From NCBI GenBank assembly GCA_964016885.1, contig OZ024743.1, positions 342,116,001 to 342,180,000 of the forward strand: 64,000 nt of DNA, in the 5' to 3' direction. This DNA is from Eledone cirrhosa (lineage: Eukaryota). Both the position numbers and the translations under genes were made by a program. The notes under the pieces are model-generated. The model saw only the letters and a list, made by a program, of their open reading frames with translations. It was not told the origin of the DNA and did no database searches. Below, piece by piece: positions 7,927 to 48,252 of this stretch (the stretch's first letter is position 1; each line of letters starts with the position of its first letter).

Positions 7927-7961
7927 CATTTTCTTGTGTGCGCATAATTCGATATCATAAT

Positions 7962-8176
7962 AGTTTCTTATATAGGCACAAGGCCGGCAATTTGAGGGGA
8001 GGGGAAGACGATTAAATCGACTCCAGTGCATCACTGGTACTTTATTTTATCGACCCGTAAGGATGAAAGGCAAAGTTAACCTCGGCGGGATTTGAACTCA
8101 GATCATAAAGGGCCGTAACTCCATGCTGAAAAGCATGGCGTCCGACGCTCTACCAATACTGCCAATCCACTGCCCT
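7962..8176 (-). mobile_element. tRNA-derived SINE with 18-bp TSD
   Basis: B-box gagttcaaatccc on minus strand; ataattcgatatcataat at 7944-7961 and 8177-8194; multiple copies in window. Confidence 0.85.
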
Positions 8177-8194: not shown

Positions 8195-8308
8195 TGTTTC
8201 TACTTTTGGCACAAGGCCAGCAATTATCCCAGTGTATTACTGGTACTTTATTTTATCGACCCCGTAAGGATGAAAGGCAAAGTTAACCTCGGCGGGATTT
8301 GAACTCAG
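8195..8308 (-). mobile_element. 5'-truncated SINE copy abutting an RTE fragment
   Basis: Same SINE 3' half as 7962-8176. Confidence 0.8.
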
Positions 8309-9025: not shown

Positions 9026-9154
9026 GCCTAGTTTTCTCAACTATCATTTAGAGTGGTTGATTATTATTTCCTTTCATTTATGTTCGCAAGACTGCACTTC
9101 TAATCTTATAGAAACGCACACAGGAACATCCACCCACGCACACACACAGACTCA

Positions 9155-9190
9155 ACTATGATGAAAGAATAGTGTCCGAAACTTTAAGAC
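9155..9190 (+). ncRNA. Degenerate HHR motif, family shared with 39816-39852
   Basis: ATGATGA-aagaatagtgtcc-GAAAC-tttaagac followed by tail and (TA)n. Confidence 0.45.
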
Positions 9191-24359: not shown

Positions 24360-25025
24360 CGAAACCTCATGGACAATACCAGGATTAGACATATCTACAA
24401 AGTACGAGCGAAACAATTGATAGTCGGGACTAGAAGAATTTTGGTAAAGTTTATATACATTTTTTCTTTAAACTTACATTTTAGACTTAGCTCCGTTTAA
24501 TTGATTATTTTCTAGTTAATTTCTACGGACTAAGAAGAAAGACTAGGTAAATTTTATCTGACTGTTCCTCGCGGGGGATAGTATTCGAAATTACATTTTA
24601 AACTTAGCTCCAAACTTACAAATTTATATAGCACTGATTAATGATTATTTGCTTAATTAATTTGTTCATTGAGCCACACGGTGAAAGGTCGCCACACTCA
24701 TATATGTATCTGTGACTATGTCTAAATATATACATATACATCCCTATGAATTTATTCTATAGTCCCGTTCGGTCGAGTAAACCTTAGGCGGTAACTGGCT
24801 GTTCCTTTTAGAAGCCAACCTACCTGCCATCTGGCCTGCCCTTCACAACCTTCTACTTTGACCGCTGGCCACGTGATAATTCTTATCCATTTTCAATTCA
24901 TTTTCGGCGACGATCATTGTAGAAATGTTAGTCCTAACTGAGGAGTCTCTTGAAAAGCTCGAAACCTCATGGATAATACCAGGTTTGGACATATTCACAA
25001 AGGACGAGCGAAACTATCGATAGTT
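24360..25025 (+). mobile_element. Retrozyme-like 600-bp unit with a permuted U3:A8 HHR (family C)
   Basis: 24361-24424 repeats at 24961-25024; composite agtctc-TTGAAAA-GCTCG..CGAGC-GAAAC-TATCGATA-GTC-gggact. Confidence 0.75.
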
Positions 25026-31155: not shown

Positions 31156-31218
<63 letters not shown>

Positions 31219-31798
31219 AAAAAAGTTGAAATCGAAAATGCAACTCGAGTCTTTTTTTAAACAAATATATATATTTATTTGGTTCCTTTCCCGGTTTTGC
31301 TTTTCAAAAGTAGAATTGGGATGGAGGGTTTGTGGTTTTTCTCACATCTATATATATATAATTATACAAATTATACCTACCTATATATATGTGTGTATGT
31401 GCATGACTGTGTAAATGTGTGTATATATATATACAAATGTATATATATAATTAGATAGTGTGAAAGAGGGGAAGAGACAGAGTGAGAGAGAGAGAGAGTT
31501 GAAACATGGAGCGCATGGAATAGCTGTTAAATCAGCCGGATTTCGTCAATGGCAACCGTATGTACAAATGCACAGGGAAGCACGTATCTTACGATAGTCT
31601 CTTCAAATTAACACAACGTTACGTCAACTGCAAGGCATTGAGGGGAAATCAGGGATCTAATACGAAAGAAAAGATATATTCTCGAAAAAATAATAGGACA
31701 TTTTATCAGTGTTATCACTTATAAAAATTCTACTGGGGAGTTATTTTTCTTTTTGCAGGTAGAATGATATGAAATAAGAATTATATATAATATATACA

Positions 31799-31885
<87 letters not shown>

Positions 31886-31888
<3 letters not shown>

Positions 31889-32655
31889 AGTATGTATACG
31901 TACACACATATATGTATACAGACGCACAGTAGTATGTATATACATACATACATACACACACATATATATATGTACGTATGGGTTTACCGAACATTTATTA
32001 TAATGTTCGGTTTGTTTGTAAACACAGCCGTACAGTGTTCGGCAACCATCGCTGCCCTATTTGTTCAACACTGACAAAGGAACGATGAACTAGTTTCTAG
32101 CTTATTAGCTGTCATCAGCACCGTATACCTTCCTGTCAGTTGATTGAACGTTTGAAAGTATATACTTTCCTTATGCATATTAACGGCTGGGCAACCTAAT
32201 TTGCATATCGAGTGAGTTAGTCGACCGGGAGTACCGAAAACGATAAATGGAAAAAATGAAATTTCATTCCTCACACTTAGTATGGCTGATACTTAAATGT
32301 TATTATGTATACATACATATATGTATACAGACGCACAGTAGTATGTATATACATACATACATGCACACATATATATATGTGTACGTATGGGTTTACCGAA
32401 TATTGTCAGTGTTGAACAAATAGGGCTGTGATGGTTGCCGAACACTGTACGGCTAATAATTCGGTCTGTTTGTTTACAAACAAACCGAGCTTTATAATAA
32501 ATGTTCGGTAAACCCATACGTACATATATATATGTGTGCATGTATGTATGTATATACATACTACTGTGCGTCTGTATACATATATGTATGTACGTATACA
32601 TACTTACATTTAAGTATCAGCTGTACTATGAGTGAGAATTGAAATTTCAATTTTT

Positions 32656-32660
<5 letters not shown>
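31886..32660. mobile_element. Retrozyme-like family D: ~409-bp monomer, partial tandem, inverted arm
   Basis: gacgcacagt at 31921 and 32330; 32405-32660 inverted; TA tracts on both sides. Confidence 0.85.
32082..32124 (-). ncRNA. Type I HHR of family D
   Basis: acggtg-CTGATGA-c-AGCT-aata-AGCT-a-GAAAC-TA-GTT-catcgt. Confidence 0.88.
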
Positions 32661-32727
<67 letters not shown>

Positions 32728-32744
32728 TATATATAATATATATA

Positions 32745-32909
32745 ACGAAAGAAATGTGGTAAGGAAGCAGATGGACCATAACGCACCAAAGTACTCAATA
32801 CTTAGGGTAGTAGAGTGGGTAATAGGAACGAGTAGGACCCCGGCGGCTGACCTCATCCAGAATTAGCCGTCGAAACGGCTTGAGCTCAGCCGTCAGGGTC
32901 CTACTCGTT

Positions 32910-32912
<3 letters not shown>
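32745..32912. mobile_element. Two-armed fragment of an HHR-bearing element between TA tracts
   Basis: Left arm is the reverse complement of the post-cleavage tail; right arm is the HHR 3' half GAAACGGCT-tgagctc-AGCCGTC. Confidence 0.7.
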
Positions 32913-32983
<71 letters not shown>

Positions 32984-33070
32984 GAGATTATATTTAATTT
33001 GTTGGGATTCAACAAGCTTAATCATTTTTATAACTGATATAAAGCACTCAACAATTGGAGTAAATACATA

Positions 33071-33300
33071 ATATATTAATAAATGGAAACTATATTTATA
33101 AAACCATATTTATTTTATTATACATATTTCAAGGGCAACCAAGGCAAATTATGGTGCGCTTTCATTAGATGAATTTATTTATAAAACAAATCTGTATTTT
33201 ATCTGATGAAAGCGCACCATAATTTGCCTTGGTTGCCCTTGAAATATGTATAATAAAATAAATATGGTTTTATAAATATAGTTTCCATTTATTAATATAT
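33071..33300. repeat. Fold-back repeat with HHR (CTGATGA at 33203)
   Basis: 100-bp arms 33071-33170 and 33201-33300; CTGATGA-AAG.GCACC..GGTTGC.CTT-GAAA-TATGTA. Confidence 0.75.
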
Positions 33301-33429
33301 TTTATATATATATATTATTTAATTAGATAGTAAACAATACAATATAACTACTCCATTACCAAAAGTTTCAGGATCCTAGACAATATTAACATACATCTAT
33401 GGTCCTGAAACCTTTGGTAATGGAGTTAA

Positions 33430-34830
33430 CATATGAAGATCAGGCCTATTGTATCGAGCGTGGAAGGACCGCTCTACGTAATTTGGTGGCTCCTAACCAG
33501 AATACTTAAATCCCTACTGGACACCATGCCGGGACACGAAAAACAGCTCCAAGGAAGTGTTGGAGCGCCTACATCAAATGGATCCCGACACCCGAAAGGC
33601 TAACAGGTAAGCCTTCAGCCTTGATGTGGTCGCTCTCTACGCCTCGGTCACGGCGCGCCCGACCGTCCATATGCTGATAGAACGTGTTCAATCTACCAAC
33701 TTATAGTGCTTCGAGCTGACATCACTCCAGCTGACATCCACCAGCTCCTATCCGTCATTGTTGACAACACATATTTCAATTTTCTCGACCAAAAATACCG
33801 GCAGACCTCAGGGCTACCCATGGGCTCAAGCCTGTCGGGTGTGCTAGCGATCTCGTATATGGACAGCCTCGAACGCAAGGCACTCAACGCCTGCCGCCCC
33901 AACGCCGTCGCCTTCTTCTCAAGATACGTGGACGACATCCTCATCCTCACATCTTCCCAGGAGATGCCGAACGGGATTTACGAGACGTTCAGCAACACGG
34001 ACGAGAATATTGTCTTCAGTGTTGAACACCCCGACGGCGACGGTTCCCTTGCACTCCTCGACTTCTGAATCAACATCACAGAGCAGGGAGCGTTCCACAC
34101 CAGCTTCTACCGCAAGGCAGCCTGCAGAGACTTGTTCGTCCATTACACATCTGCCCTCCCTAACAGTGCATCACGAACGAGATGATGTGGATTAAAAACA
34201 GATGCAGCGATCCCGTGAGTAGTGTCACCCATACCAAGCGGTTACTCAGGGTGCTGGAGACGAACGGAAACCCAGCATCATTTACAAGCAGAGTAAGAGA
34301 CACCAGACGCAAGAGGCAGAGAAATACCCAAGGCAAGTGCTTCCTTAAAATCCCGGACCTGGACGAGAAAACCACCAACGCTATCCGCAGGGCCATACGG
34401 AGGGAGGGCCTCGACATCCACTTGGCCCACTCGAGCCCCTCCCTACGGAGATGCCTCTCCAGGAAACCAGAGAAATTGGTTGACACGTGTTACCGCCAGC
34501 AACGGTCCGATGCGCCAAACGAACTGTTTGCTACGCATGTACGTTGTATACAGCGTAGAATGTGACAAGTGCAACGACTACTACATCGATAGCACAATCC
34601 GACCACTACATCTCCGGATCAAGGATCACATCAACACCAGGGCCAGGTCTTTCAAGAAACACATAACCAAATGCGGAAAGAAAGACAGAAGGCCCATTGT
34701 CACTGTGTTAGCGGCAGAACGCAACGTCGCCACATTAAGAATCTAGGAAGCACTTTGGATCAAACGCCTCGGACAACAAATAAATAACCGATCCGAGAAA
34801 AGTGAGAGGAGATGGCTGGTGTAAACAAAC
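33430..34830 (+). mobile_element. Penelope/Poseidon-type PLE (RT + GIY-YIG), disrupted
   Basis: FSLDVVALY; QTSGLPMGSSLSGVLA; RYVDDIL; LALLDF; VVYSVECDKCNDYYIDSTIRPLHLRIKDH. Confidence 0.9.
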
Positions 34831-35151
34831 GAAACAACAACAACACACACACACACAGTGGCAATCGAACGATCGTTATTGTGTGTATAGCGTGTCCACC
34901 ATCCACCGACCAACAAACAACAATCAGGTAAACTACCAATACAACAACACACCTGCCAGTATCAAAGGCTGAATATAAGAAATTGACAGTGAAGATGCGT
35001 ACGCACTCACACATCAGCATCCCACTACTCTAGTATAGAAGAATCGCCTCAACCTTTGTCTGACTGCAGAGTAGTTTAGTTGTACACACACGGTTGACAA
35101 CAGAGGCCACGTGTTGTTCCTCTCCGACTAAAAACTTTCCCCCTCGGAAAA

Positions 35152-35188
35152 CCCCCAGTTGATGGATGCGAAATCCGAAATATAGGGG
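35152..35188 (+). ncRNA. Degenerate HHR downstream of the Poseidon-type ORF
   Basis: cccc-CAGTTGA-t-GGAT-gcgaa-ATCC-GAAA-TATA-gggg (two core mismatches). Confidence 0.5.
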
Positions 35189-35374
35189 CAATTTAATCAC
35201 TTCCACGGTAACTCTATCTCGTGTTATTATTTTTACACTCTTTCCTACGTTCCTCTACACCCTATACGTCTCATTCTACATTTCCTCTTACATCTCTCAT
35301 TACCACCTGATTTTGTTACCCGGAGATTTACCCATCTGCATTGTTGAGGCTTCCAAAACGACCAATTATATACA

Positions 35375-35445
<71 letters not shown>

Positions 35446-36016
35446 GTATATATATATACATATATATACGGCGGGGATGGGATTTGATTTTTTTCCGTTT
35501 ACTGCCAATTACACCCTACGGCTGTGATTTTCCCCTTCGTTAGCGGCTTGATATTGGCTGGGGGTATTTTCTCTGGCTCTCTGATTCCTCAGTGAGTTCC
35601 TTTGTTCTGATTTGCCTTGTCATCCCATACCCACCTTAGCAGCAGAAATGTTTTTTTTTCTGCTGCAAGGGCTGGCATAAAAGAAAATTCTAATCCGTAC
35701 ATTCTCGTGCGAATAAGAGCTTGTAACTCTTATTGGATCTTTTACTTTTTTACTTTACTTATCATTCCTACGTGCCAACATACTCATTTCTTAATCATCT
35801 CTGTGTTTCATCTACTGTTCACCCACCTCACAACTTTCTGTTTCTGTATAGCGATATCTGGCCATAATTTTCTAATCTTAGGACTATATTTTTACCCGAC
35901 TTCTATGCTGTTGTCATTGACGAAATTCGGCTGATTTTACAGCCCCCTCTCTATGTATATTTTAGAAAATAGCATATATTTTCACTAGCTCTGGCAATTG
36001 GCAGGTGGACAGTGAC

Positions 36017-36060
36017 CTGTACTGATGAATGGTGATGCCCAGAAACATTAGTGTCTGCAG
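36017..36060 (+). ncRNA. Type I hammerhead ribozyme
   Basis: ctgta-CTGATGA-a-TGG-tgatgc-CCA-GAAAC-ATTAGT-GTC-tgcag. Confidence 0.85.
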
Positions 36061-36223
36061 TTCTGTTTAATATGCCAACACAAGAGCAAGAATGAAGGGT
36101 TAATTCTACTGACATGCCTAGAAAAATGAGGCTAGTTTGTATAATTGCAAACGAATCGAATGGTAATAATATTCGAAAAACTCAGATTACATTTATGGTA
36201 TTCAGCCATGTAGAGCGAAAATT

Positions 36224-36267
<44 letters not shown>

Positions 36268-36368
36268 ATAATAATAAATTTGAAGACTAAAATCCAAAGA
36301 GGGCTCGATAAGTTTAAATATATATATCGCATATATAAGAACCGTAGAGCAAATATTTCTTAAATTTA

Positions 36369-36431
<63 letters not shown>

Positions 36432-37061
36432 GGTGTTGGATCCTTAAAGCGTCCGTTTGCGGTAGGCCGTTTGAGCACTCGATGCTCTCATAGAGCAGAG
36501 TATGATATCACAGAAAAAAAGAGAATCAGTGTGCGACGAATGGAGTTTATTGGACATTTTACAATCGTTTCTCTGGCGACCAGCTCGATGAACGATCGAT
36601 GTGATGATCGGACCTGACACTGAAAATTGCAAGGTCCCCAGATATGTCTTGATTCTACGAAGCAAATGTTCCTAATGTTCTATTACATCGATATCCTTCG
36701 CCTGTCGGCTTAGATCCTGTTGTCATTCTATGAGTGGTCAAGTATTGTACACGTCATCGATATTTCTAGCCACTCTTAGTTGTCCACTATTTGGTTCTTT
36801 TAATTCTCCATCTGTCAATCAAGGTCGTTTCTTAGATCGGAATTACTACTGTAGTAGGTAAGGGGTTGTATGCTTGAACTGCTGGCGACCCTTCGACGTC
36901 TTCTCTTTCTTTAGGCACCCTCGTCCACACCAATCACGTACACACCCGCAACTGTATTGTGTGCGACAATCACCATAAATAATGCTTGCAGGGAATTTTA
37001 AAAACAAATTAGAAAAATATTTAGCATAACTTTTTTCTGTGATATATATATATATATATAT

Positions 37062-37603
37062 AAGTATGTATGCATACGTACATACATATATGTATACAGA
37101 CATAGAGTAGTATGTATATATATATACATACATGTACACATATATATATGTACGTATCGGTTTACCGAACATTTATTATAATGTTCGGTTTGTTTGTAAA
37201 CAAACAGCCCGAATTAAGCCGTACAGTGTTTAGCCACCATCGTTGCCCTTTTGTTCAACTCTGACCAAGGAACGATGTACTAGTTTCAAGCTTATTAGCT
37301 ATCGTCAGCATCGTATACCTTCCTGCCAGATGATTGAACGTCTGAAAGGGTTGAACAAAAGGGCAACGATGGTTGCTAAACACTGTACGGCTTAATTTGG
37401 GCTGTTTGTTTAAAAAACAAACCGAACATTATAATAAATGTTCGGTAAACCGATACGTACATATATATATGTGTACATGTATGTATATATATACATACTA
37501 CTGTATGTCTGTATACATATATGTATGTACGTATGCATACATACTTACATTTAAGTAACTGGTGTACTAAGAGTGAGAAATGAAATTTTGTTTCATTTTT
37601 TCC

Positions 37604-37608
<5 letters not shown>
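37062..37608. mobile_element. Retrozyme-like family D, fold-back copy (HHR at 37272-37314, minus)
   Basis: acgatg-CTGACGA-tAGCT-aata-AGCTt-GAAAC-TA-GTA-catcgt; inverted arm 37351-37608 crosses the monomer junction. Confidence 0.85.
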
Positions 37609-37652
<44 letters not shown>

Positions 37653-37675
37653 AATACATTTGAAGACTAATATCT

Positions 37676-37762
<87 letters not shown>

Positions 37763-39474
37763 AGTAATGTTGTGTGGTATACCTGTGAGTATAGTTGATC
37801 ATTCTGATTAGTTAACCATGATGCAATATGTTAAAGCCCTCGAAGTTACGCAATTCATCCATCGTAGATGTAGTATCCCGTGGCTGGGGATTTCAAAACA
37901 ATACAAGGTCGAACTGGAAATATTCTCTTTAAATGTTTAATATTGCAAAACACTATACGTTATTCAATGGCCTTGATAGATCTGATTATGATGTAGGATT
38001 CATCGAGTGCGGATTGTAAAATTGTTAATTGATAAGGGGATCACGGCTTACATATACAGAAAATAGAAATTAGAGATGACATGATTCGGAGATGGCCTGC
38101 AAATTCGATGTTATTGTAATGGCGAACCATCTCTGAATAATACACACTCAGCAGAGTACACACTGTTGCAAATCTCCTTACTATCTACCACCTATTGCTG
38201 TTTCGTATCAGGAATTACATCCAAAGTTATTTAGTTTGGCTAGCTCTCTCTTGTACCTCTCGGGGAATTTCTTTTTCACACTGTACTTCGTTTCATTGAT
38301 TTCGTTTTCAGTTACTGGCACCCTAAGTTTTACGTTCAATATGTTCTATTATTTGTGTATTTAGTCGAAAGGAAAATGGTGTATTTTGTCGCCTCGTTTT
38401 GTTGTTTTACAATCTCATGTGTAGTAGATGGAATGATTCTAATGCACAGAAATCATAGCGATCTACAGTATTTAGGTGAAAAAAAGGGCATGTCCATATT
38501 TGTTTTGTTATCTGTCCTTATATGTTTAATTTATATATATGCAAATATAGTAGGTCGTTGTAGGGAAATGTTGCATTGCACTAATTATGTGTAATTTATG
38601 ACATAAATAGCACATACGTATATACAAACTATATTGATACAGGCAGTAATACTATATATAATATGTGAAACAATGTTATAAAATTTCATCATAGTAGTAC
38701 GATGCCAGGCTGTGATTTGAAAGAGATTTAACCGCAAATAGTTTTGTGAAATCATAAAGTGGCAGTTCCATCAGCTTGTTTTGTCTCACATTGTTTCCGT
38801 CTGTGTTTACTATATATTAGTCTTTCTTTTGATTTCCTTTAATTTAGTTTGTACAGTATCATGTTTGAATTTCCGTTTCACTGTTCTTTCAACTTCCGAA
38901 AAAGTATTTGTTAAATTTCGTTGGATTTTTCCATCATAATAAACTGTTAGATTTATCGTTCCAAATCAGTGATTGCTTGCTTTACTAGTTTTAACTTTAA
39001 TGATTGCTTTGCTAAGTCTGCGTGGGTTTAGTAATAAAGAGGAAATGTTACACGTTTCATGTAAGGAAATTATTTAACGAACAATAAACACAAATAATTA
39101 ATTGGTCATTTTGGTCATTTAGAACAAACATAAATTTCATATTAATATTTTTGAAGAAAACATTGAGCTGTCTGTAAGAGATGTATGTGTGTTTAGTATA
39201 CATAAATATTTCATATACTTATATGTTCATAAGCGTCTTTATTCTGAGGCAGGCTGTATTAATGGTAAAAGTAAATAAGCACGCATACGTTTATGTATGC
39301 ACAGATGAATTTTACATTATTGGTGCATTTGAAAATTCGCATGAATTCCTTGTATATAGATTAGATATTTTGCAATTTCATATGAAAATATCCAAAAGAA
39401 ATGTGGACAAAGACAAAATACATACATCCACACATGCAAATACACACGTATTCAAATATACGTATAATATATAA

Positions 39475-39516
<42 letters not shown>

Positions 39517-39815
39517 CTGTGTGGGTGGGTGTGTGTGTGTGTATACATATATATATATATATATAAATATATATATATAATACGTATATATATATATATA
39601 TATGTATATGTATATATAAATATATACGTATGCACACATGCATATATAGATCTTTGTTTATTTATCTGTATCTCTCTCTCTATATATATACATATATGTA
39701 TGTGTGTGAGTGTGTGTGTGTGTGTGCAAAAAATAAACGGATAAATAACACAGCAAAGCGATACATATATATGAAGATAAATAGTAGTTTAAAGCTTGAT
39801 ATAGTATGAAAAGAG

Positions 39816-39852
39816 ACTTAACGTTTCGGACGTTATACTTTCATCAGAATTT
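39816..39852 (-). ncRNA. Degenerate HHR motif
   Basis: Minus strand att-CTGATGA-aagtataacgtcc-GAAAC-GTT-aag. Confidence 0.55.
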
Positions 39853-40992
39853 GAAATAAAAGGGGAATAAAACGATAAACAAGAGTGGGAAGAGAAAAAA
39901 GCGAACCAATTTACAGGGTGGGGGAGAAAGCTTATGCTTGTTCAGTTACCCATATAGGGGAAGTGCTGCTCAGAACGTATTTTAAATAGTAGAGAGGGTA
40001 TGAATGGAGATGATTCATATGTATTTTGAGTGGACATGTGCGCGTAGGTGTGTATGTGTGTGCGGGCGTATGCATGTTTTCTCTGCAAAGCTGTGAAAGT
40101 ATGTGCGTCAGACAGAGCCAAAGCTGGTGTCGTTGGTCGGGTTGTAAACGTGTGAGTTTGTGTGCCTCAGATGACAGTGGATGACAGTCGGGTTCGTGTA
40201 TCGGCGGACACATGTTTGTATGTTTATATTCACTCGCACACATGTAGGCGTAGGTTGATGTTGTCTACATTACCATGAAAGAGCCTTGTGTCTATGTTTA
40301 CATGTGCGTACATATACTGTACATGGACACACAAAGGAAGAAACTGTCGTAAGGCGTTGTAGGGAAATGATGATGATGATGAAGGTGTTTGTCACCTTGC
40401 CTCATATCCGTGGCTATGACTGTAAGAGACACTGCTTAGTGTCGGTGGTACAACTCCAGTCGGGTGAACTATGAAATGTAAAGTCACTGCGTATGTAGAG
40501 GGGATAGCGCCGGGTAGTGATTGTGGACGGAGAAAATGTTGGGAAACATTTAATACCAATGATGCCCTAGCTCCGGCTTGGGTACCACGTGAGCACAGCT
40601 GCATACACAGAAGACACAAGAACACCTACACCCTCAAGTGCAACCCATATAGCGGTGTGCATCGGGGGTGTATGATATCTGGTTATGTGTATATGTGTAC
40701 AGATATACGAGATAGCTAGCTAGCTAGCTAGATAAATAGATAGATAGATATGTTTCTTTATTAACCACAGGGGCACAAAAGAAGGGGACAAATACAAAGG
40801 GGGAAGTTTACATACAATAAAAACGTGTAAAATGTTATCACAAATGGAATTTAAAAAGTTAGTCGATTTTCCCCATATAGAGGGAGACAGTTTATATGGG
40901 TAACAAATACCCCCGAAAAAAAATGTGCAACCCTCATCTCCAGGAGTACGAAGAGTTTGTACTCCCTTCCTCTCCTCCTCCTTTTCCTCAAC

Positions 40993-43900
40993 CTACAGGC
41001 TGATATAGAGAGAAGGCCCATTCACTCGGGCCATTCTCGCCACTTTCACCCACCTTTCATAAAACTTGTGGGGTACAGCACCTCTCTCTCCATCCTGATT
41101 CTTCTTCCAAAGTGGTATTTGAAAAAAAGAATCAGTTGTTCGCCGGAGAGAAAGGTGTCTGACCTCAGCCCTTTCAACCTTGTCCACCATACAACCTCTT
41201 TCGCCAAAGCTATCACACAAAGGAAAACCGCCTCTCCTTCGTTTTTGAAGGAGGGTGGCGGTTTGTTCATGACAATGGACTCGGTGGTCAACTGGATTGG
41301 TCCCACCCGCGACAATAGTCGTTCTACATAGCCCCACAGGTCAGTGACGCCCGGGCTGTGTATGAATGCGTGCGCGACGGTTTCTTCGTGTCGCACGGAC
41401 CTTGGACAGATCTTTTTTGCAGGGTCCCTGCCCGGGCGCCCATGTTTGTAGAGCTTATCTCGAACTGGTAGAGCTCCTCGGTAGCACTGCCAGGCCAGGG
41501 ACTTTGGGAATTTGTCCATCGGTCCCGGGCGGAAGGTCCTACCGAACAGACTGGCCAGTTCATCTTCCTCTACGCCTAGAGTTTCACCGAGCGCGTCGTC
41601 GCACTTGCTGCGGATCAACCCTCTATAGAATGACGAAGTGGAGTCTCCACTGATCGCCAGGTCCGCCTGCCAGAGGGCTGTGAGCGCCTGAGCACATTCG
41701 ATGTGCCAGTTGCCCATTTTCCTCGGTCTTTGCTTGACCCAGGACTGCAGCTCGGTCAGCGAGACGAGTCGTGGGAATGCTCGCCTCACGAACGGGGCCC
41801 ACACCGGTTGTCCGGTGAGGAATACGTAGAGTTGGCGCAGCCTGAGCGCGTGTTGCGCATCGTCAACCACGGCATCCCCAGCCCGCCGTTAGAAGGGTGT
41901 TGGCAGCAGATGGATCTTCTCACCAAAGGAGCCCGCCTCTTCCAAAGATATCGGAAGAGCGCGCGTTCCATTTTGGCGAGCGTTTTGGCTGGACAAGGCA
42001 CGACGGTCAAGCGGTAGTAGATGGCGGACGCTATAAAAGTGTTCGGCACCTCCGCTCGACCTTTCAAGGATAGTTTGCACTCGGCCCACTTCTGGGTGAG
42101 TGCAAACACCTTGGCCGTCACTGGGTTCCAGTTCTCTCCACCTGGAGGTCCGGACCAAACCAGACCCCGAGCAGCTTTTCCTGGTCCTTCCGTCCAGCGT
42201 CCGACGACGCCATCGGAAGGCATCGGTTTGCCTCTCCACGATCCGAGTTGCAAACCGATGGACTTGTCCCGGTTCAGCTTCGCTCCTGTGAAACTTTCGT
42301 ATTCCTTCAGTAAGGTGGCGACTTCCTCGATTTGCGAGGCGCTCAACACCATTATTGTCACGTCGTCCCGGTTCCAGAGGGATGCCCTGCAATAGCTCCA
42401 ACTTCCGCAGTAGTGGCTCGAGAGTCAGTACGTACAGAAGGGAGGAGAGAGGGCATCCCTGTCGAATGAATCGCGTAATATGGAACGGCTCCGAGAGGTA
42501 GCCGTTCACCTTGACCCTTGAGCAGATGTTGCTGTTGTGCATTGCAGCAATACAGCCCCTGAACACGGGTCCGAAGCCTGCCGCCTCGAGCACCGCATCC
42601 AGGTAACGATGGTCAACCCTATCGAAAGCCTTAGACTGATCCAAGTTGAGCAGGGCCCCACCGAAGCCAGGTTTACACCCTACCCTCTCTATGATGTATC
42701 GCATGAGGTGGTCGGGATTGCGCATGTCTGCGCTTCTCCCACCAGGTTCTCGACGACAAGCGCCAGCCTCTTTGCCAACACCTTGGCCAAAATCTGTAAC
42801 ACTGTGTTTAGCAGAGTTATGGGCCGGAAGTTGCCTATGTCATCCCCCTTATTCTCGTCCTGCCTGATTAGTGTGACCCCGCCCCCGGTTACAGAACTGG
42901 GAATTCTCCGGTTCTGTTGCCAGTTGCAGTAGACCGCTTCCAGGAGACCGGTGAATAAGTCCGGCATTGTTACGTAAAATTCGTAGGGTTAAACCGTCGA
43001 GACCCGGAGATTTGCGTTTGCCGCATTGGCTCAGCGCGTCCCCTATCTCACTGGCTGAAATCGGCTTTTCGCAGAACTTTGCCTCGCTGTCCGAGAGTCG
43101 CGGTAGGCCGTCGAGGTATGGACCGAAATCCATAGCCTCTCCCGGCGCGCCGCCCCTCCCGAACAGCTGAGCAAAGTGCCGCTGAAAATCCGCACACATC
43201 TGCTCGGCTCACGTATCACGCGTCCGTTTTGGTCCTTCAAAGACCGAATCGTGGTCTTGTTGCCACTTTTTGCCTCCGTCACTCGGGCCCAGCTAACAGC
43301 TTTGGCTCCCTCGTTTCCCAGAGCACGTATTTTGCTTCTGACAACGCAGCCCTCGTGCTTTGCGTCGAAGAACTGGTCCAAGGCCGTTCTCGTTGCTAGC
43401 ACGCTGGCTACGTTGCCACTTCTAATTGCCTCTTCTACTTTATCTACCAGTTCCTTCTCGGTTCTATTTCTATCTAACGCTAATTCTTTACTAAAAACTA
43501 TCGAGTCTAATCTAACTGCCCTCTTGAGAGAGTACCACCATCTGTTGTTGACAATGGCCCCTGTCAAGTGCTGTTTAACTAAAGTGCTAATCCGTCTACT
43601 GTAGGCTTTGCTTGTCGGTAACGACAAGTTCATCTTCCAGTAGCCGGGTCCTTGTCTATGGGTTCTATCAAGGTTGGCCATGCAGGTCACTAGTTTGTGA
43701 TCTGAATAGGCAACCACGAACATTTGTGGACAGCTTAACATGTCCCTATCCTTATTTCTAACTAGAACCCTATCTAGGTACGATCTAGATGTTTCGCTAC
43801 GATTACTCCACGTCCACTGTGGCGCAGTCGGAAAATCTAGTCGATATCTATCGGCCAGGTCAAATCGGTCGATCAACTGTTTGAGGCTGTTACACCCCCC

Positions 43901-44377
43901 TTTATCGGGACATGCTCCCACATAGTCCCAACGTGCATCTAGTATTCCATTCCAGTCCCCCACTAAAAGCAAGGAGCGGGACGTTCCCAGAAAAGTCTCT
44001 AGACGTCTGAAGAAGTCTGGCCGCGGTGTCCCGGATGGGGCATATGCGGCCACCAGCCTGAAGGCTCCACCTTCACTACCGTCAACGTCTAGGACCAGCA
44101 GTCGACTCTCCGGGTCCAGATGTACCGTCTGTGTTACGAGGCTCAGGTGTTTCCGCAGCAAAACAGCAACTCCGCCCCCACCCCCCGGTTGACAGAGAGA
44201 TGCGTAGATCTCAAAGTCATCGAAGATGGGGGCCAGCTGTCGCTCGCTGTGGATCCTGGACTCGCAAATGGCTACCACATCCATACTGTGCGACCTGAGG
44301 TCGTTTAAGAGTTTGCCCTGTTTCCAGGGCATCCCTAGGCCGCGTACGTTCACACATCCAACTCTTATATTGGCCAT
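40993..44377 (-). pseudogene. Tx1 ORF2 (APE endonuclease + reverse transcriptase), frameshifted
   Basis: CVNVRGL, ICES, AYAP, VGDWN, SYLDR, YSDH; KSPGLDGL; NFRPITLLN; LDQSKAFDRVDH; IRQGCPLS; CPRS..EETVAHAF. Confidence 0.92.
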
Positions 44378-44814
44378 AGATTTTAGACAAGGTGGGATGT
44401 AGTTTCCAGGATAGGTTTTGCACTCTCATTAAGAGGCGGGTATATGTGCCATCCAATCTCCTCTCAAGTTGTGATGTTAGTGTCCACGTTTCGGATCCAT
44501 AAAGTAATATGGGCTTAATGGTTGCTTGGAATATTTCCAGTTTTAGCTTGTTGGTAAGTTCTAAAATCCCGGAGAGCTCAATTTGCTGGCCACTGTCACC
44601 GTGCCAGCAATGAAATCATATCCGCTCTCTTGCTCTGGAACCCTGACTCCAGCCTGACTAGGAGTAGGAAGCTGTCATTCCCTGACGTTATCTCTAGGGA
44701 TACGGCAATCAGTAGACAGGACCTGGGGGCGGCGATGAGGGACAGGGAATTCTGGGGCATGAGAGTGAGATCCATCATCTCGACAGTAGTCGACGAATGA
44801 TGATGATGATGATG
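44378..44814. mobile_element. 5'-inverted RTE LINE 3' insertion with (TGA)n tail and 11-bp TSD
   Basis: Plus 44566-44800 RRAQFAGHCHR..LLLWNP..AMRDREFW then tgatgatga; minus 44378-44560 ILLYGSETWTLT..RRLDGTYTRLL..HPT..IYG; atattggccat at 44367-44377 and 44815-44825. Confidence 0.92.
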
Positions 44815-44858
44815 ATATTGGCCATGTTGGTGCTGAAAAGTTAAAAGAGGAAAAGAGA

Positions 44859-46682
44859 TCACTCACCCTTCGTCTCCTGGGGACCAGGCTGCACGATTTC
44901 CATGGGGGTGTTGGAGGGGTTGTCTGGATGGGTGGTGGTTTCCGGCGGGGTGGGGATGGAGATGTTGGTAGTGGGGTCTGGTGGGATGGGGGTGTCTGGT
45001 GTGGTGAGACATTTGAGAAGGACGCGGTTAAGTGGTTTCACGCAGGAATTCCCCACATCCTTCTCAAATGTTTCTTTTAGGGACCTATAAGTTTGTATGG
45101 GGACCCTAATCAGTTTTAGGTTCAGTTTTTTGTTATTTTTAATAGAGTGGGCGAAAGTTTTCCCTTCGGTTTTCACCAAAGGGTCTTTCGTGATGGTCTC
45201 CATTAGTGTTTTGTTTTCAGTGTTTATGTAAGTGTAAGTGTAATTTTCTAGTGTTGTGTTTGTTTGTGTCTGTAGTTCTTGTGTGTGCTTTCGTTTTGTT
45301 GTAGGTATTTTGTTTTCAGGAGGTGGGGGTTTTGTTTGTGATGCTTTTGTTGTTTGTGTTGGTGGTTGTATGTTTGTGGTAGTGTTTGCTGGTTTTTTGC
45401 TTTTGTGATGTCTTTTCTTTCTTTTCGAGCGATGGGATTCTCCCTCGTCTTCACTGGGTGATGGCGAGATAGCCTCGTCTGTTGTATCGTCTGTGTGATT
45501 GGGACGGGGTATGTCTTGGGGAGCTGTTGTGTCTGTATGTGATTTTGCAGTGGTTTTAGGTGGAGTGGGGTTGGGTGGGACTGTGTTTGTTGTAGTTATT
45601 TTTGTGTGTTGGTGTTGTTGTTGTGGTGGTTGTGTTGTTTTGATGGGTATCGGCAGAAGAGCCTTTTTTTACTCATTAATTTAGGACAGGAAGCCCTCAG
45701 GTGACCCCTGCTAAAGCAATGGTAACATGAAGGCCGCCTACCCTCAACCGAAAAGTTTATGTAGGTGAGTCCGTCCAGGAGTACACGTTGTGGGATCATA
45801 GCTATTCGCTCTGGGCTCATTTGCACCAGAACTTCAATGCTAGTCCCATTGAATACATCTCTGGGGGACTTTCCTACTGACAGTATTCTGTCTTCATCAA
45901 AATTGATGAAGCCGCACAGTATCCACCATATGTTCACCGTTGGTGTGACACTCGTGATTTTAATCTTTTGTGTCCTTTTTCCCATGTATGTAGGGAAAAA
46001 GGTATACAGGTTGGATACAATTGGCGACACAGAGTAATTTTAGGCCGTCAATTGATCCTTCATGAGTACCGAAATACTCCCAAAGAGTTTGCTTCTTTCA
46101 ATGAATGCAATATCATTCATTGAATCTTTGAAAACCAGTCCAATTTCTTTCTGTGACAATTGGACTGGTTTTCGGGTAGAATTGGAAACTGTCCTAAAAA
46201 CTATCGATTTGAGAGCAGTTTCCTTGCGAATTTCTACCAGAGATGACGCTGAAAGCACCATTTTTTTCGAAAGTGACATATCTCCTAGCGACCTTTAAAA
46301 GTTGTTCGGCATTTATTATGTCGAGATATGTCAGTTCCTCCTTTTTTTTAACTGTCTGTGCAAAGGAGATTTTTGGTTTCTTTGTGGAATTATACGTGTT
46401 GGTGGTATTGACATTATTGTTGTTATTGTTGTTGTTATTCTTGTTGTCAATGATATTGATATTATTCGTATTTTCCTTGGTGTTGGTGTTGGTGTTGTTG
46501 TTGTCTTTGATGCTGGTGTTATTGGTGTTGTCTTTATTTTTTTCTTTGTTGTTGTTGTCATTGTTGTTTTTATCATCATTATTGGTGTTGTTATTTTTGT
46601 TGTCATTGAACTGTTTGGTGTCATTTGTGTTGTTTGGATATGAATTTGTTTTTACATTTTCATTTCGTCTTTCCATCTCCAT
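44859..46682 (-). pseudogene. Tx1 ORF1 (Asn/Thr-rich low complexity, CCHC zinc knuckle), disrupted
   Basis: SFAQTVK; VEGRRPSCYHCFSRGHLRASCP; broken into ORFs 46194-46682, 46040-46279, 45596-46030 and 44859-45203. Confidence 0.8.
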
Positions 46683-46989
46683 AGTATCTAGGGAAGAAGA
46701 CGATGTTGACTGCGAGCTCTGTAGTCTTACCGACTCTCCACCACCATTATCGTTGAAACAGCGTTCATAACGTAATCAAACTTCTTCCGATATTTTATTC
46801 AAAATTCGATGGAGAAAAAATTTTAAACCGAATATTTCGCCCCTGTATAGGCGAAAATGAGTTGACCCACCACCTGAAGGTCCAGACGGGGAGTCAAGTT
46901 ACACAATAATATAAAATTTAACTGAAAACTCACGTTTTTTTCTTACATAAATTAACGGAAACTTCTCCGCGAAGTTACACACGTCTGGT

Positions 46990-46997
46990 AGAGAGAG

Positions 46998-47089
<92 letters not shown>

Positions 47090-47090
47090 G
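46990..47090. repeat. (GA)n/(GATA)n microsatellite
   Basis: Direct reading. Confidence 0.98.
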
Positions 47091-47779
47091 GAAACGTGTA
47101 CTTATACGTCTATATACAGCTATAAAGTGGTTGAAAGAGATTGTGTTATAGATATAAATTTGTAAGCAAACGGAAATTATCGGATTTATAAACTTAGTCA
47201 AGTATAAATAGAATAAATGAGAATATTCAGTTTTCAGTTCACAAAACTTTTATTCAAATTTTTATCTTTACTTAAATTGTAGTTTTTTTAATAGAGTGGA
47301 ACTTTGTAGTGTTTCGTTAAAATAAATGTGATATGTTTGCCAAGTATTTCATTATATATACACTGTGTGTTTACCAAATATTATATTACGGAGAATTCTA
47401 AAGTGTTCAAGGAGTTTTACGTATTTATCTACACTATGGGGGCGCGATGGTGATGCTTCAAATATATAAATGATGTAAAGATAAATGCAGTGGCACAGGT
47501 GTAGAAGTTAGACTTACAACCAACCGCTTCCGGGTTCTATTGACTACACTGCCATCCCAATGGCCAAGGAACGTCAGCAACAGAGTTGTGTGAAATTAGA
47601 TATAAACAATATGGTAGGTCCGTCTGCATATAAATACACACACACGTATATATATATATATATACACATACACGCATATATATATATATATATACACGCA
47701 TATATATATATAACTAAATATATATATATAGATATATATATATACATATATACATATATACATATATATATATACATAT

Positions 47780-48246
47780 AAGTATGTATACGTATATACA
47801 TATATGTATACAGACGTACAGTAATATGTAAATACATACATACATTTACGTATGGGTTTACCGAACATTTATTATAATGTTCGGTTTGTTTGTAAACAAA
47901 CATCCCGAATTAAGCCGTACAGTGTTCGGCAACCATCGTTGCCCTTTTGTTCAACACTGACAAAGGGACGATGAACTAGTTTCTAGCTTATTATCTGTCA
48001 TCAGCACCGTATACCTTCCTGTCAGTCGATTGAACGTTTGAAAGTATATACTTTCCTTATGCATATTAACGGCTGAGCAGCCTAATTTGCATATCGAGTG
48101 AGTTAGTCGGCCGAGCGCATCGGAAACGATAAATGGAAATAATGAAATTCCATTTCTCACTCTTAGTACGGCTAATACTTAAATATAAGTATGTATACTT
48201 ATCAGCCGTACTAAGAGTGAGAAATGAAATTTCATTTTTTCCATTT
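47780..48246. mobile_element. Retrozyme-like family D: one ~407-bp monomer, wrap-around and short inverted arm (HHR at 47968-48010, minus)
   Basis: aagtatgtatac at 47780 and 48187; 48200-48246 inverted relative to 48130-48178. Confidence 0.85.
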
Positions 48247-48252
48247 ATGTAT

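What the first reader, a model, noticed from the sequence alone, without database searches (positions are those of the whole stretch)
31886..48246. Retrozyme-like family D: ~408-nt monomer with circular-permutation junction and recurrent end points
Seen: three copies (31886-32660, 37062-37608, 47780-48246) of a non-coding unit with one HHR and an extended stem I. Each copy reads through the tail-to-head junction and then switches strand. In all three, the outer ends fall at the same two TA-containing sites (..catactta|TA and ..ttttccat|TA). Inference: these derive from a circular or multimeric RNA copied by PLE RT, primed internally by microhomology from both ends of a cut (TA)n target.
Basis: partly seen in the sequence, partly recalled or inferred. 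Interest (0 to 1): 0.75.

Follow-up and report, generated by a model that had tools for sequence, protein, structure and literature searches.

The report
Hammerhead repeat with Penelope insertion scars
A short non-coding repeat carrying a hammerhead ribozyme motif sits beside TA repeats with the same insertion scars that Penelope-like retrotransposons leave, so it was most likely copied by their enzyme; it is a clean new example of a known kind, and whether a circular RNA served as template is untested.

Summary
The window holds three copies (31886-32663, 37064-37609, 47779-48248) of a non-coding unit: 409 nt in copy 1, about 425-428 nt elsewhere in the genome. Each copy is two arms head to head. 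One outer end lies at ..CATACTTA(YAT), the other at ..TTTTTTCCAT(TTAT), both against TA repeats.

The minus strand carries a type I hammerhead motif with a 1-bp helix III, a palindromic CUAG loop and a long helix I. Rfam sees it only below threshold.

In 115 further loci of this 3-Gb genome the same two ends recur. They are 3' ends of the hammerhead strand, 56 nt apart, and both lie on AUUUA. The 5' ends scatter, and arms reach 2.5 units. Paired arms nearly always combine one end of each type (24 of 28).

This matches the published signature of Penelope-like elements: partial tandems, an inverted truncated copy, a "tail", two internal start sites, both strands primed, AT-rich targets. GIY-YIG elements abound in the genome.

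Verdict: a non-autonomous, ORF-less Penelope-type element, retrozyme-like, and a new member of a known kind. A circular RNA template is neither shown nor excluded, because no RNA runs were listed. Tail-ended arms show an excess at about one unit length (9 of 45; 2.7 expected), which stays unexplained.

The parts
31806..31885 (.). (TA)n run abutting the left (no-tail) end of copy 1
   Evidence: Sequence read directly.
31886..32404 (-). Copy 1, left arm. Its RNA-sense strand is the window's minus strand. It spans 1.26 units, and its sense 3' end lies at 31886 (the no-tail site, ..CATACTTAC|ATAT read on the minus strand).
   Evidence: The direct repeat 31901-31995 against 32310-32404 is 95% identical.
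32065..32136 (-). Hammerhead motif of copy 1. Core CUGAUGA lies at 32118..32112 and GAAA at 32097..32094. Helix III is A-U closing a CUAG loop. The predicted cut lies between 32088 and 32087.
   Evidence: Hand model. Rfam HH9 scores 20.7 bits, below the gathering score of 52, E 0.0031 in a 111-nt scan. Core pattern match.
32243..32298 (-). The 56-nt 'tail' segment lying inside the left arm of copy 1, at the unit-to-unit junction
   Evidence: Block A hit. It is followed by the internal continuation TTATCGTTTT.
32403..32663 (+). Copy 1, right arm, sense on the plus strand and 5'-truncated just 3' of the ribozyme core. It ends with the tail ..TTTTTCCAT at 32659, followed by ATAT.
   Evidence: The inverted repeat 31876-31969 against 32524-32617 is 94% complementary.
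32660..32745 (.). (TA)n run abutting the right (tail) end of copy 1
   Evidence: Sequence read directly.
37064..37348 (-). Copy 2, left arm (0.66 unit), with a no-tail end at 37064. Its hammerhead core lies at 37308..37283 and reads CUGACGA.
37347..37609 (+). Copy 2, right arm, ending with the tail ..TTTTTTCCATTTAT against (TA)n
   Evidence: The inverted repeat 37117-37200 against 37410-37493 is 98% complementary.
47779..48199 (-). Copy 3, left arm: one unit plus about 15 nt, with a no-tail end at 47779. Its hammerhead core lies at 48004..47979.
48200..48248 (+). Copy 3, right arm: the tail alone, ending ..TTTTTTCCATTTAT

Best explanation
Family D is a non-coding repeat of about 410-430 nt with a hammerhead-ribozyme motif. 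It was most likely spread by the reverse transcriptase/GIY-YIG endonuclease of Penelope-like elements (PLEs) acting in trans. That enzyme would have begun copying the repeat's RNA at two internal sites 56 nt apart, from both strands of a cut in or beside (TA)n.

Shown here:
- the unit, its hammerhead motif and the polarity of that motif;
- two recurrent 3' ends, both at AUUUA, and scattered 5' ends;
- arms longer than one unit;
- head-to-head arm pairs that nearly always combine one end of each type;
- TA repeats at the 3' junctions;
- thousands of GIY-YIG candidates in the same genome, some of which, where examined, also end against (AT)n.

Inferred:
- The template would be a multi-unit RNA of hammerhead polarity, either a tandem transcript or a circle.
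- The nicked target 3'-OH on each strand would prime cDNA at one of the two sites.
- The two cDNAs would be joined in the middle by a template switch at short homology, giving inverted, 5'-truncated arms.
- The 56-nt 'tail' would be simply the stretch between the two start sites.
- The element would be an ORF-less derivative of a PLE flanking repeat that kept the ribozyme and the start-site region.
For: 1. End points, unanchored sample of 29 loci plus the 3 window copies. The tail motif occurs 65 times. In 38 cases the next unit follows (TTATCGTTTT). In 27 it does not, and 24 of those 27 run straight into TA-type repeat. In the arm table of 69 arm pieces, 26 end at the tail site and 23 at the no-tail site. 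Three have a damaged internal tail and 17 are fragments or end elsewhere.

2. All 118 loci, automatic classes, 255 arm pieces: tail 112, no-tail 61, other 60, internal 21, edge 1. These counts are inflated by anchoring, because 57 loci were chosen by a tail end and 29 by a no-tail end.

3. The fixed ends are 3' ends of the strand that carries the hammerhead. The other ends scatter over the whole unit. That is the polarity expected of target-primed reverse transcription.

4. In copy 1 the sense unit holds ATTTA exactly twice, at the two end sites.

5. Arms run on through unit junctions, up to 1037-1049 nt or about 2.5 units (L010, L062).

6. There are 75 head-to-head pairs. In 28 of them both outer ends lie at the recurrent sites: 24 mixed, 2 tail/tail, 2 no-tail/no-tail. 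Tail-anchored loci have a no-tail partner 10 times and a tail partner once. No-tail-anchored loci have a tail partner 7 times and a no-tail partner once. Fisher p = 0.0012.

7. PF01541 (GIY-YIG) gives 10596 first-look candidates. 150 were scored and all are over the curated cut-off. 7 of the 20 fetched PLE loci end about 950 nt after the endonuclease at ..CCCTGTTTTC|(AT)n or a close variant of it. A different coding PLE family ends ..TTTTTTCCAT|(AT)n in the window.

8. Literature. PMC11167929 (main text): two internal start sites equal the tail, both strands extended, AT-rich cleavage, multi-copy unprocessed RNA as template. PMC8557442 (passages): partial tandems, an inverted 5'-truncated copy, a tail at one end, (TA)n targets, non-autonomous relatives. 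Preprint 10.64898/2026.07.22.740005 (abstract and section 14): animal retrozymes related to PLE flanking repeats.

9. Non-coding. The longest stop-free frames are 75-107 aa and low in complexity, with no Pfam match over cut-off.
Against: - No protein partner is identified. The unique part of the unit (319 nt) has no significant match in the 25 PLE loci fetched (best E 0.056), a tiny sample of more than 10000 candidates.
- Mobilisation in trans is inferred from scars alone. No empty site, polymorphism or RNA was seen.
- The hammerhead is below Rfam's threshold. It has C and A where G10.1-C11.1 is usual (35 of the 42 copies itemised out of 47). The copies are too alike to show covariation: observed equals shuffled.
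- 16 of 47 copies have a damaged core.
- Copies differ by about 7-8% pairwise, within an insertion as much as between loci, so the family may no longer be active.
- Frangieh et al. report start sites without homology to the cut DNA, whereas here every junction is ambiguous by 2-5 nt.
- About a quarter of arm pieces (60 of 255) end at neither site.
Confidence: 0.8

Rival explanations
1. True retrozyme cycle. The unit would be transcribed, cut out by its hammerhead acting as a dimer, ligated into a circle of about 425 nt, and the circle would be the template on which the PLE enzyme runs round (rolling-circle reverse transcription). This is a special case of the best explanation, not an alternative to PLE mobilisation.
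For: - Arms exceed one unit and cross the ribozyme cut site without a scar.
- The 3' ends are not at the ribozyme cut, so a cut linear monomer alone cannot be the template.
- The sense monomer folds stably as a circle: -122 kcal/mol, z about -5.3 against 15 mononucleotide shuffles.
- Tail-ended arms are over-represented at about one unit: 9 of 45 at 384-444 nt against 2.67 expected, binomial p 0.0011. Also 8 of 16 arms at risk end in the 392-447 bin. An enzyme meeting its own start on a circle would give this.
- Circular RNAs of 170-400 nt are documented for animal retrozymes (PMC7229834, passages).
Against: - No RNA data were available.
- The one-unit excess is diffuse. The 5' ends lie from about 30 nt before to about 30 nt past the start site. 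It is absent in the 27 no-tail-anchored arms (2 against 1.6 expected).
- A protein or hairpin block at each unit of a linear multimer would give the same pattern.
- In the only biochemical study, unprocessed RNA was the main substrate, ribozyme mutants did not affect insertion, and no reads ended at the cut (PMC11167929).
- Helix III is 1 bp and 10.1/11.1 are unpaired, so self-cleavage may be weak.
Confidence: 0.25
2. The two-armed and tandem structures are not single events. Later copies would have landed in earlier copies, because the PLE endonuclease recognises its own tail region (self-targeting).
For: - Passages in PMC11167929 say the enzyme may nick 'its own pLTR', and that the Drosophila Penelope endonuclease needed the tail sequence for recognition.
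- Several loci are clearly compound (L019, L021, L025).
- TA runs are hot targets that hold other elements too.
Against: - Inner junctions lie at scattered unit positions, not at the AUUUA sites, and carry no TA repeat between the arms.
- The outer ends are coupled: 24 of 28 mixed, and partner type depends on anchor type, p 0.0012. Independent hits would not give this.
- Arms of one insertion are no more and no less alike than copies at different loci, so age gives no separation.
Confidence: 0.12
3. The unit is only the flanking repeat (pLTR) of a coding PLE, and the copies seen are truncated remains of full elements.
For: - PLE flanking repeats carry hammerheads and give the same scars.
- Retrozyme families in frogs match PLE termini.
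- The tail end of D shares ATTTCA-N(1-2)-TTTTTTCCAT with the 3' end of a coding PLE family.
Against: - In all traced multi-unit arms the sequence 5' of a unit is another unit, never an ORF.
- No D-specific sequence occurs in 25 PLE loci.
- No RT or endonuclease domain lies in or between units.
- This does not exclude a rare or extinct coding parent.
Confidence: 0.08
4. A different mobiliser or none: a SINE-like element moved by a LINE, a foldback or MITE DNA transposon inserting at TA, or a satellite spread by recombination.
For: - A LINE with an AP-endonuclease and RT lies in the window (41046-44425).
- TA is the target of some DNA transposons (recalled, not from a call).
- The arms are inverted.
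Against: - The two termini are not inverted copies of each other; they are offset by 56 nt.
- Arm lengths and inner junctions differ from copy to copy, and one-armed copies are common.
- There is no A-rich or LINE-like 3' tail.
- Copies are dispersed on more than 20 contigs with precise ends.
Confidence: 0.03

Closest known systems
Insertion signature of endonuclease-bearing Penelope-like elements (Craig et al. 2021, PMC8557442; Frangieh et al. 2024, PMC11167929, Poseidon of Anolis)
   Same: Partial tandems. An inverted 5'-truncated copy with the 3' ends facing outwards. A short extension ('tail') at one end only. Two adjacent internal start sites. AT-rich or (TA)n targets. A hammerhead upstream of the start sites on the same strand.
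   Different: - There is no ORF. The whole element is about 425 nt.
- The tail is 56 nt rather than 30-40 nt.
- The start sites lie about 200 and 258 nt downstream of the ribozyme cut, against roughly 90 nt in Poseidon.
- Both sites here read AUUUA and overlap the TA target by 2-5 nt, whereas the paper reports an AC-rich stem-loop and no homology.
Animal non-LTR retrozymes (Cervera and de la Pena 2020, PMC7229834; Li et al. 2026 preprint 10.64898/2026.07.22.740005)
   Same: A non-coding, AT-rich (35% G+C) unit in the 170-400+ nt class. One type I hammerhead per unit, with short helix III and a palindromic loop, so likely active only as a dimer. Head-to-tail repeats. Proposed dependence on PLEs.
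   Different: - Arrays are short. The longest same-strand run reliably traced is about 2.5 units; a lenient tracer gave 3.4 for L133, but a stricter one could not follow it.
- Arrays are usually paired with an inverted arm.
- RNA, self-cleavage and circles are untested.
- The passages I read in those papers do not mention tails, start sites or inverted arms. The words 'tail' and 'initiation' are absent from the preprint.
Non-autonomous Chlamys elements such as MRC1 of Chlamydomonas (Craig et al. 2021, passage)
   Same: ORF-less PLE derivatives that make pLTR-like partial tandems and multicopy head-to-tail insertions.
   Different: They belong to the green-alga lineage with an N-terminal endonuclease. 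Those PLEs lack canonical hammerheads, and their similarity to the parent is at the 3' end.
Twin priming of LINE-1
   Same: The second DNA end primes on the same RNA. This gives an inverted, 5'-truncated arm joined by microhomology.
   Different: In LINE-1 the second priming site is arbitrary and the event is a minority outcome. Here both primings use defined sites and pairs are the rule.

Membership tests
Hammerhead ribozyme, type I (metazoan form) | Conserved core C3-U-G-A-N-G-A9 and G12-A-A, A15.1-U16.1 pair, H17 cleavage nucleotide | tested here: met
   CUGAUGA ... GAA A..U U| in copies 1 and 3. Copy 2 has CUGACGA and H17 = A. 31 of 47 genomic copies keep the CUGANGA + GAAA + CUAGUU string.
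Hammerhead ribozyme, type I (metazoan form) | Three helices in the right places, with helix I open and helices II and III closed | tested here: met
   Helix I is 6 bp, extended to 22 bp with two interruptions. Helix II is 4 bp with an AAUA loop. Helix III is 1 bp with a CUAG loop. 96.4% of cells are paired on 46 copies, against 30-48% when the partner is slid (that control is biased because I derived the structure from these sequences).
Hammerhead ribozyme, type I (metazoan form) | G10.1-C11.1 pair next to the core | tested here: not met
   C and A stand at these positions in 35 of the 42 copies itemised out of 47. One search printed only the 8 commonest helix II strings, one of which has a U-A pair there.
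Hammerhead ribozyme, type I (metazoan form) | Score over the Rfam gathering threshold | tested here: not met
   0 matches at gathering score. HH9 scores 20.7 bits against 52.
Hammerhead ribozyme, type I (metazoan form) | Covariation supporting the helices, and self-cleavage | tested here: inconclusive
   Covariation equals the shuffles because the copies are 94% alike. Cleavage cannot be tested with these tools.
Non-autonomous derivative of Penelope-like elements | Partial tandem (pLTR-like) arrangement | tested here: met
   Arms of 1.1-2.5 units run through unit junctions.
Non-autonomous derivative of Penelope-like elements | Inverted 5'-truncated copy adjoining | tested here: met
   75 head-to-head pairs in 118 loci. 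All 3 window copies show it.
Non-autonomous derivative of Penelope-like elements | Tail: a short extension present at one end, bounded by two start sites | tested here: met
   A 56-nt segment lies between the two recurrent 3' ends. 24 of 28 pairs have it at one end only.
Non-autonomous derivative of Penelope-like elements | AT-rich or microsatellite target | tested here: met
   24 of 27 tail ends abut TA-type repeat in the unanchored sample. Whether the repeat pre-existed on both sides is unclear: a TA run of at least 10 nt lies at the 5' flank in 6 of 16 one-armed copies.
Non-autonomous derivative of Penelope-like elements | No RT or endonuclease of its own, with coding PLEs present in the genome | tested here: met
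   No domain in the unit. GIY-YIG: 10596 candidates, 150 of 150 scored over the cut-off, with open frames up to 1096 aa.
Non-autonomous derivative of Penelope-like elements | Sequence shared with an autonomous partner | tested here: inconclusive
   Only about 16 of 18 nt at the very 3' end are shared with one coding family. There is no significant match in 25 PLE loci.
Animal non-LTR retrozyme | Short non-coding tandem unit with a type I hammerhead in each repeat | tested here: met
   Arrays are short and often inverted.
Animal non-LTR retrozyme | Expressed as linear and circular RNA of unit length | not testable with these tools
   No RNA holder was listed for this stretch.

The most novel reading that the evidence does not exclude
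The two start sites are not alternatives but partners. In one insertion event the two DNA ends of a double-strand cut are each handed to one of the two AUUUA sites on the same bound RNA, presumably by a dimeric PLE protein. That is why two-armed copies almost always carry the tail at one end only. The excess of one-unit arms records the enzyme running once round a circular, ribozyme-processed monomer until it meets the start region again. Family D would then be a natural minimal template of about 425 nt, holding every cis signal a PLE enzyme needs.
Probability: 0.2. Interest if true: 0.65.

Novelty: new member of a known kind. Interest (0 to 1): 0.36.

Why it matters
That animal retrozyme-like repeats are moved by Penelope-like elements has been argued from co-occurrence and from sequence relatedness. 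Here the insertion scars themselves make the case: two start sites, a tail, inverted arms, TA targets. They are the scars recently explained biochemically for a coding PLE.

A unit of about 425 nt that carries all of them narrows down where the cis signals for PLE reverse transcription must lie. It would also be a convenient substrate for in vitro work.

The coupling of the two end types within one insertion, and the one-unit excess, are small quantitative additions. They bear on whether one bound RNA serves both DNA ends and whether the template is a circle. None of this changes the known picture, so the finding is a well-documented example rather than a surprise.

Tried and rejected
- Rfam at gathering score over the window gave nothing. 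Rfam at E<=10 over 851 nt gave only microRNA-like chance hits in the AT-rich block.
- RNA evidence: no RNA holder was listed. There were 3 runs of unknown kind from one study, kept as contigs. I did not lay them, because low-coverage contigs of a high-copy repeat cannot speak to one locus or to RNA.
- Earlier notes of this scan: none for this genome.
- Covariation on 46 ribozyme copies was uninformative.
- Identity within an insertion against identity between loci, meant to tell one event from two or a circle from a tandem: no difference. Values were 0.92 for same-strand units and 0.93 for inverted arms within an insertion, against 0.918 between loci.
- Search for the coding partner. 20 GIY-YIG loci and 5 long-ORF PLEs were compared with the unit. 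Only AT-rich noise and weak hits at the tail hairpin appeared.
- L051, fetched to see a full L045-type element, proved to be a truncated copy with an inverted partner.
- Methods that failed: fuzzy motif matching was too loose and was tightened. A lenient local-alignment tracer over-extended through the AT-rich block. A block chain that ignored that block broke at the E-F linker missing from the window copy. I replaced both by a stricter alignment to a genomic unit.
- 5' ends at the ribozyme cut (a linear processed monomer as template): no excess.
- 5' end positions taken modulo the unit, counted by hand: no hot spot. Only the length distribution of tail-ended arms shows a peak.

Full report
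WHAT IS THERE.

The window lies in a 3.0-Gb genome (contig C4). It holds three copies of one repeat, at 31886-32663, 37064-37609 and 47779-48248, and no others.

I used copy 1 as a ruler: u1-u409 = 31886-32294, plus the four bases AAAT that follow in most copies. I cut the unit into blocks in RNA-sense order: B C D E F G A.
- D holds the ribozyme.
- G is a 94-nt AT/AC-rich stretch.
- A is a 56-nt 'tail'.

Copy 1 repeats itself after 409 nt. Other genomic copies repeat after about 421-428 nt, because copy 1 has lost about 15 nt between E and F.

The unit has 35% G+C. It has no stop-free frame above 107 aa, the frames are translated microsatellite, and nothing passes a Pfam cut-off.

THE RIBOZYME.

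Rfam at its own thresholds reports nothing in the window, and no hammerhead at E<=10 over 851 nt.

By hand, on the minus strand of copy 1, I read 5'-ACGGUG CUGAUGA C-AGCU-AAUA-AGCU-A GAA A-CUAG-U U|CAUCGU.
- The core is canonical.
- Helix II has 4 bp.
- Helix III is a single A-U pair closing the palindromic loop CUAG.
- The predicted cut lies between 32088 and 32087.

A scan of 111 nt then gave Hammerhead_HH9 over the full model, with the same register. It scored only 20.7 bits against a gathering score of 52, E 0.0031.

Helix I continues outward (GAAGG/CCUUU, CUGAC/GUCAG, GUUCAA/UUGAAC).

The core pattern CTGANGA-N(8-24)-GAAAC occurs 7 times in the window against 0.25 expected. Three of these are family D.

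Weak points:
- The pair next to the core is C/A instead of G-C in most copies.
- 31 of 47 copies keep the core string.
- The losses are mostly C-to-T and G-to-A changes at CpG.
- The copies are too alike for covariation.

A 1-bp helix III with a palindromic loop is what Cervera and de la Pena describe for 'canonical' metazoan type I hammerheads that cleave as dimers (PMC4209133, passages).

THE ENDS.

A search of the genome with the unit gave 3439 first-look candidates. 40 were scored and 30 loci were kept.

In those 29 other loci plus the window copies, the string ending ..TTTTTTCCAT occurs 65 times.
- 38 times it is followed by TTATCGTTTT, the start of the next unit.
- 27 times it is not.
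- In 24 of those 27 it runs directly into TA-type repeat, either as CCAT|ATAT or as CCATTTAT|ATAT.

The second end is ..GTATACATACTTA. Inside arms it continues (C/T)ATTTAAGTATC, the start of the tail. At ends it continues (C/T)AT|ATAT.. or (C/T)ATTTA|TATA...

Of 69 arm pieces:
- 26 end at the first site;
- 23 end at the second;
- 3 have a damaged internal tail;
- 17 are fragments or end elsewhere.

Both sites are 3' ends of the ribozyme-bearing strand. The opposite ends scatter over the whole unit. Fixed 3' ends with ragged 5' ends, on the strand that carries the ribozyme, is the polarity expected of target-primed reverse transcription of that RNA.

In copy 1, ATTTA occurs exactly twice in the sense unit, at these two sites. 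By contrast, the run of 12 alternating A and T in block G is the best match to a TA primer, yet it is an end in only about 2 of the 69 pieces (L002, L020). I therefore read the sites as specified, with 2-5 nt of unavoidable overlap with the TA flank. I do not read them as chosen by microhomology.

ARMS AND PAIRS.

Arms run through unit junctions, up to about 2.5 units (L010 1037 nt, L062 1049 nt).

Many insertions have two arms, 5' end to 5' end, so that both flanks touch a 3' end. All three window copies are of this kind. Each has the no-tail end on the left and the tail end on the right.

To get samples not chosen for a full unit, I searched with 66-74-nt probes across a terminal junction. 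There were two for tail ends and one for the no-tail end, giving 86 new loci after dropping 4 that repeated earlier places.

Over all 118 loci there are 75 head-to-head pairs. In 28 of them both outer ends are at the recurrent sites: 24 mixed, 2 tail/tail, 2 no-tail/no-tail.

Partner type depends on anchor type:
- tail-anchored: 10 no-tail partners, 1 tail partner;
- no-tail-anchored: 7 tail partners, 1 no-tail partner;
- Fisher p = 0.0012.

The remaining 47 pairs include at least one arm classed 'other', 'internal' or 'edge'.

Inner junctions are at varied positions with a few shared bases.
- One junction (u132|u356) recurs in L010, L013 and L022.
- One sits on the ribozyme's ACTAGT palindrome (L072).

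HOW THIS COMPARES WITH WHAT IS KNOWN.

Craig et al. 2021 (passages) list the structural marks of Penelope-like elements: strong 5' truncation, partial tandems that make pseudo-LTRs, an inverted 5'-truncated copy next to them, a 30-40-bp 'tail' often at one end only, and (TA)n targets for some clades. They also mention non-autonomous relatives.

Frangieh et al. 2024 (main text read) purified a Poseidon element of Anolis. They found that:
- it cuts AT-rich DNA on both strands and extends both;
- reverse transcription begins inside the RNA at two adjacent sites;
- the tail is the stretch between those sites;
- a multi-copy, unprocessed RNA is the main template;
- ribozyme mutants did not affect insertion.

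Family D shows each of these marks, on a unit with no ORF.

The genome is rich in PLEs. PF01541 gives 10596 first-look candidates, 150 of 150 scored over the cut-off, with open frames up to 1096 aa. Seven of the 20 fetched copies end about 950 nt after the endonuclease at ..CCCTGTTTTC|(AT)n or a close variant of it.

A 5'-truncated 3' end of another coding family lies in the window at 31215-31345 (minus strand). It ends ..ATTTCAACTTTTTTCCAT|(AT)n, very like D's ..ATTTCATTTTTTCCAT.

Animal 'non-LTR retrozymes' are short AT-rich tandem units with a type I hammerhead, seen as linear and circular RNAs (PMC7229834, passages). A 2026 preprint relates them to PLE flanking repeats (abstract and section 14). 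The words 'tail' and 'initiation' do not occur in it.

My four literature searches turned up no paper that describes the tail and two-site signature on a retrozyme-like repeat. That is a limited search of open-access text and preprints.

MECHANISM I COMMIT TO.

An RNA of ribozyme polarity holding more than one unit would be bound by a PLE protein made elsewhere. The protein would cut in or beside a TA run. Each exposed 3'-OH would start cDNA at one of the two AUUUA sites. Synthesis would stop at varied points. The two cDNAs would be joined by a switch at short homology, giving the inverted, truncated arms. One-armed copies would arise when only one end primes.

Shown: the anatomy and the statistics above. 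Inferred: every step involving protein or RNA.

CIRCLE OR TANDEM.

The genome cannot decide this.

For a circle:
- Arms longer than a unit cross the cut site without a scar.
- Tail-ended arms pile up near one unit. After dropping 4 anchors that proved internal and one arm with an internal deletion, 9 of 45 lie at 384-444 nt against 2.67 expected from a shifted exponential (p = 0.0011). 8 of 16 arms still at risk end in the 392-447 bin, against 3 of 19 and 5 of 24 in the two bins before it.

Against reading much into this:
- Those 5' ends spread from about 30 nt before to about 30 nt beyond the start site.
- The 27 no-tail-anchored arms show no such peak.
- A protein or hairpin block on a linear multimer would give the same result.
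- The biochemical work found uncut RNA to be the substrate.

No RNA run was listed for this stretch, so expression and circularity are simply untested.

AGE.

Copies are about 92-93% identical pairwise, and units or arms within one insertion are no closer than copies at different loci. This fits one past burst from a uniform source, and the family may be extinct.

VERDICT.

It is unproven for the circle and doubtful for microhomology as the cause.

This is a new member of a known kind. Its modest added value is that it shows the PLE scars directly on a retrozyme-like unit and quantifies the coupling of the two start sites.

Noticed in passing
window 31215-31345 (minus strand): A 5'-truncated 3' end of a coding PLE family. 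It matches L045 at about 2790-2950, downstream of that copy's GIY-YIG domain. It ends ..TTGCATTTTCGATTTCAACTTTTTTCCAT against (AT)n, and its last 16 nt or so resemble the tail end of family D. This family is a possible clue to the autonomous partner.
   Followed up: partly
window 5490-5513 (+), 24938-24965 (+), 36022-36046 (+), 39823-39847 (-): Four more hammerhead-core matches that do not belong to family D. The one at 36022 resembles the core found at the start of PLE locus L041. They are probably other PLE or retrozyme-like families.
   Followed up: no
window 41046-44425 (minus strand); window 8274-9161 (+): LINE-like open frames with Exo_endo_phos (E 2.6e-13), RVT_1 (E 2.5e-09) and a weak zf-RVT hit. 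A separate RT fragment (RVT_1, E 3e-09) lies at 8274-9161.
   Followed up: no
window 32747-32912; also L023 right flank and L017 left flank: Another short element (AACGAAAGAAATGTGGTAAGGAAG.. to ..CTACTCGTTCC) lies between two TA runs, right after copy 1. The same element adjoins family D copies at two other loci. TA runs in this genome collect several repeat families.
   Followed up: no
window 33061-33173 and 33198-33310: Inverted repeat with 113-nt arms, 96% complementary, 24 nt apart. Its nature was not examined.
   Followed up: no
L010 about 2474, L013 about 2046, L022 about 2045: The same inner junction occurs at three loci on different contigs: antisense ..AATGCTCGGTTTG joined to sense TTTTCGGTAC, that is u132|u356. 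Either it is a favoured switch point, or a two-armed copy was itself copied.
   Followed up: partly
L072 about 1296 (oriented as): The two arms meet exactly on the ribozyme's ACTAGT palindrome. Two cDNAs of the same polarity could anneal there.
   Followed up: no
one-armed copies in L005, L014, L027, L058, L059, L070, L073, L096, L119, L144 and others: TA repeat is usually present at the 3' junction but often missing at the 5' junction. In 16 one-armed anchored copies a run of at least 10 nt lies at the 5' flank in 6 and at the 3' flank in 14, though the 3' figure is partly due to selection. This may mean insertion at the edge of TA runs, loss of target DNA at the 5' junction, or TA repeat added at initiation. 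It is unexplained.
   Followed up: partly
L031-L034, L036, L038, L042: One coding PLE family ends about 950 nt after its GIY-YIG domain at ..TTCTTCCTAAT(AATCGT)CT(C/T)TTTCTCCCTGTTTTC against (AT)n. A GGAAAAAAA..TTTTTCTTCC hairpin precedes the end, reminiscent of the tail hairpin of family D.
   Followed up: no
L051 (G000 C14:22479500-22489400): An L045-type PLE copy is itself 5'-truncated and paired with an inverted copy (6785-8027 against 4819-3267, 91-99% identical). Coding elements of this genome therefore show the same two-armed architecture.
   Followed up: no
arms of 549-612 nt in L002, L006, L008, L012, L013, L024, L026, L027, L067, L082, L089, L092, L124, L125, L136, L142: A second loose cluster of arm lengths lies near 550-600 nt (1.3-1.4 units). 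It appears for both tail-ended and no-tail-ended arms, so it tracks length rather than unit position. It was not tested statistically.
   Followed up: no
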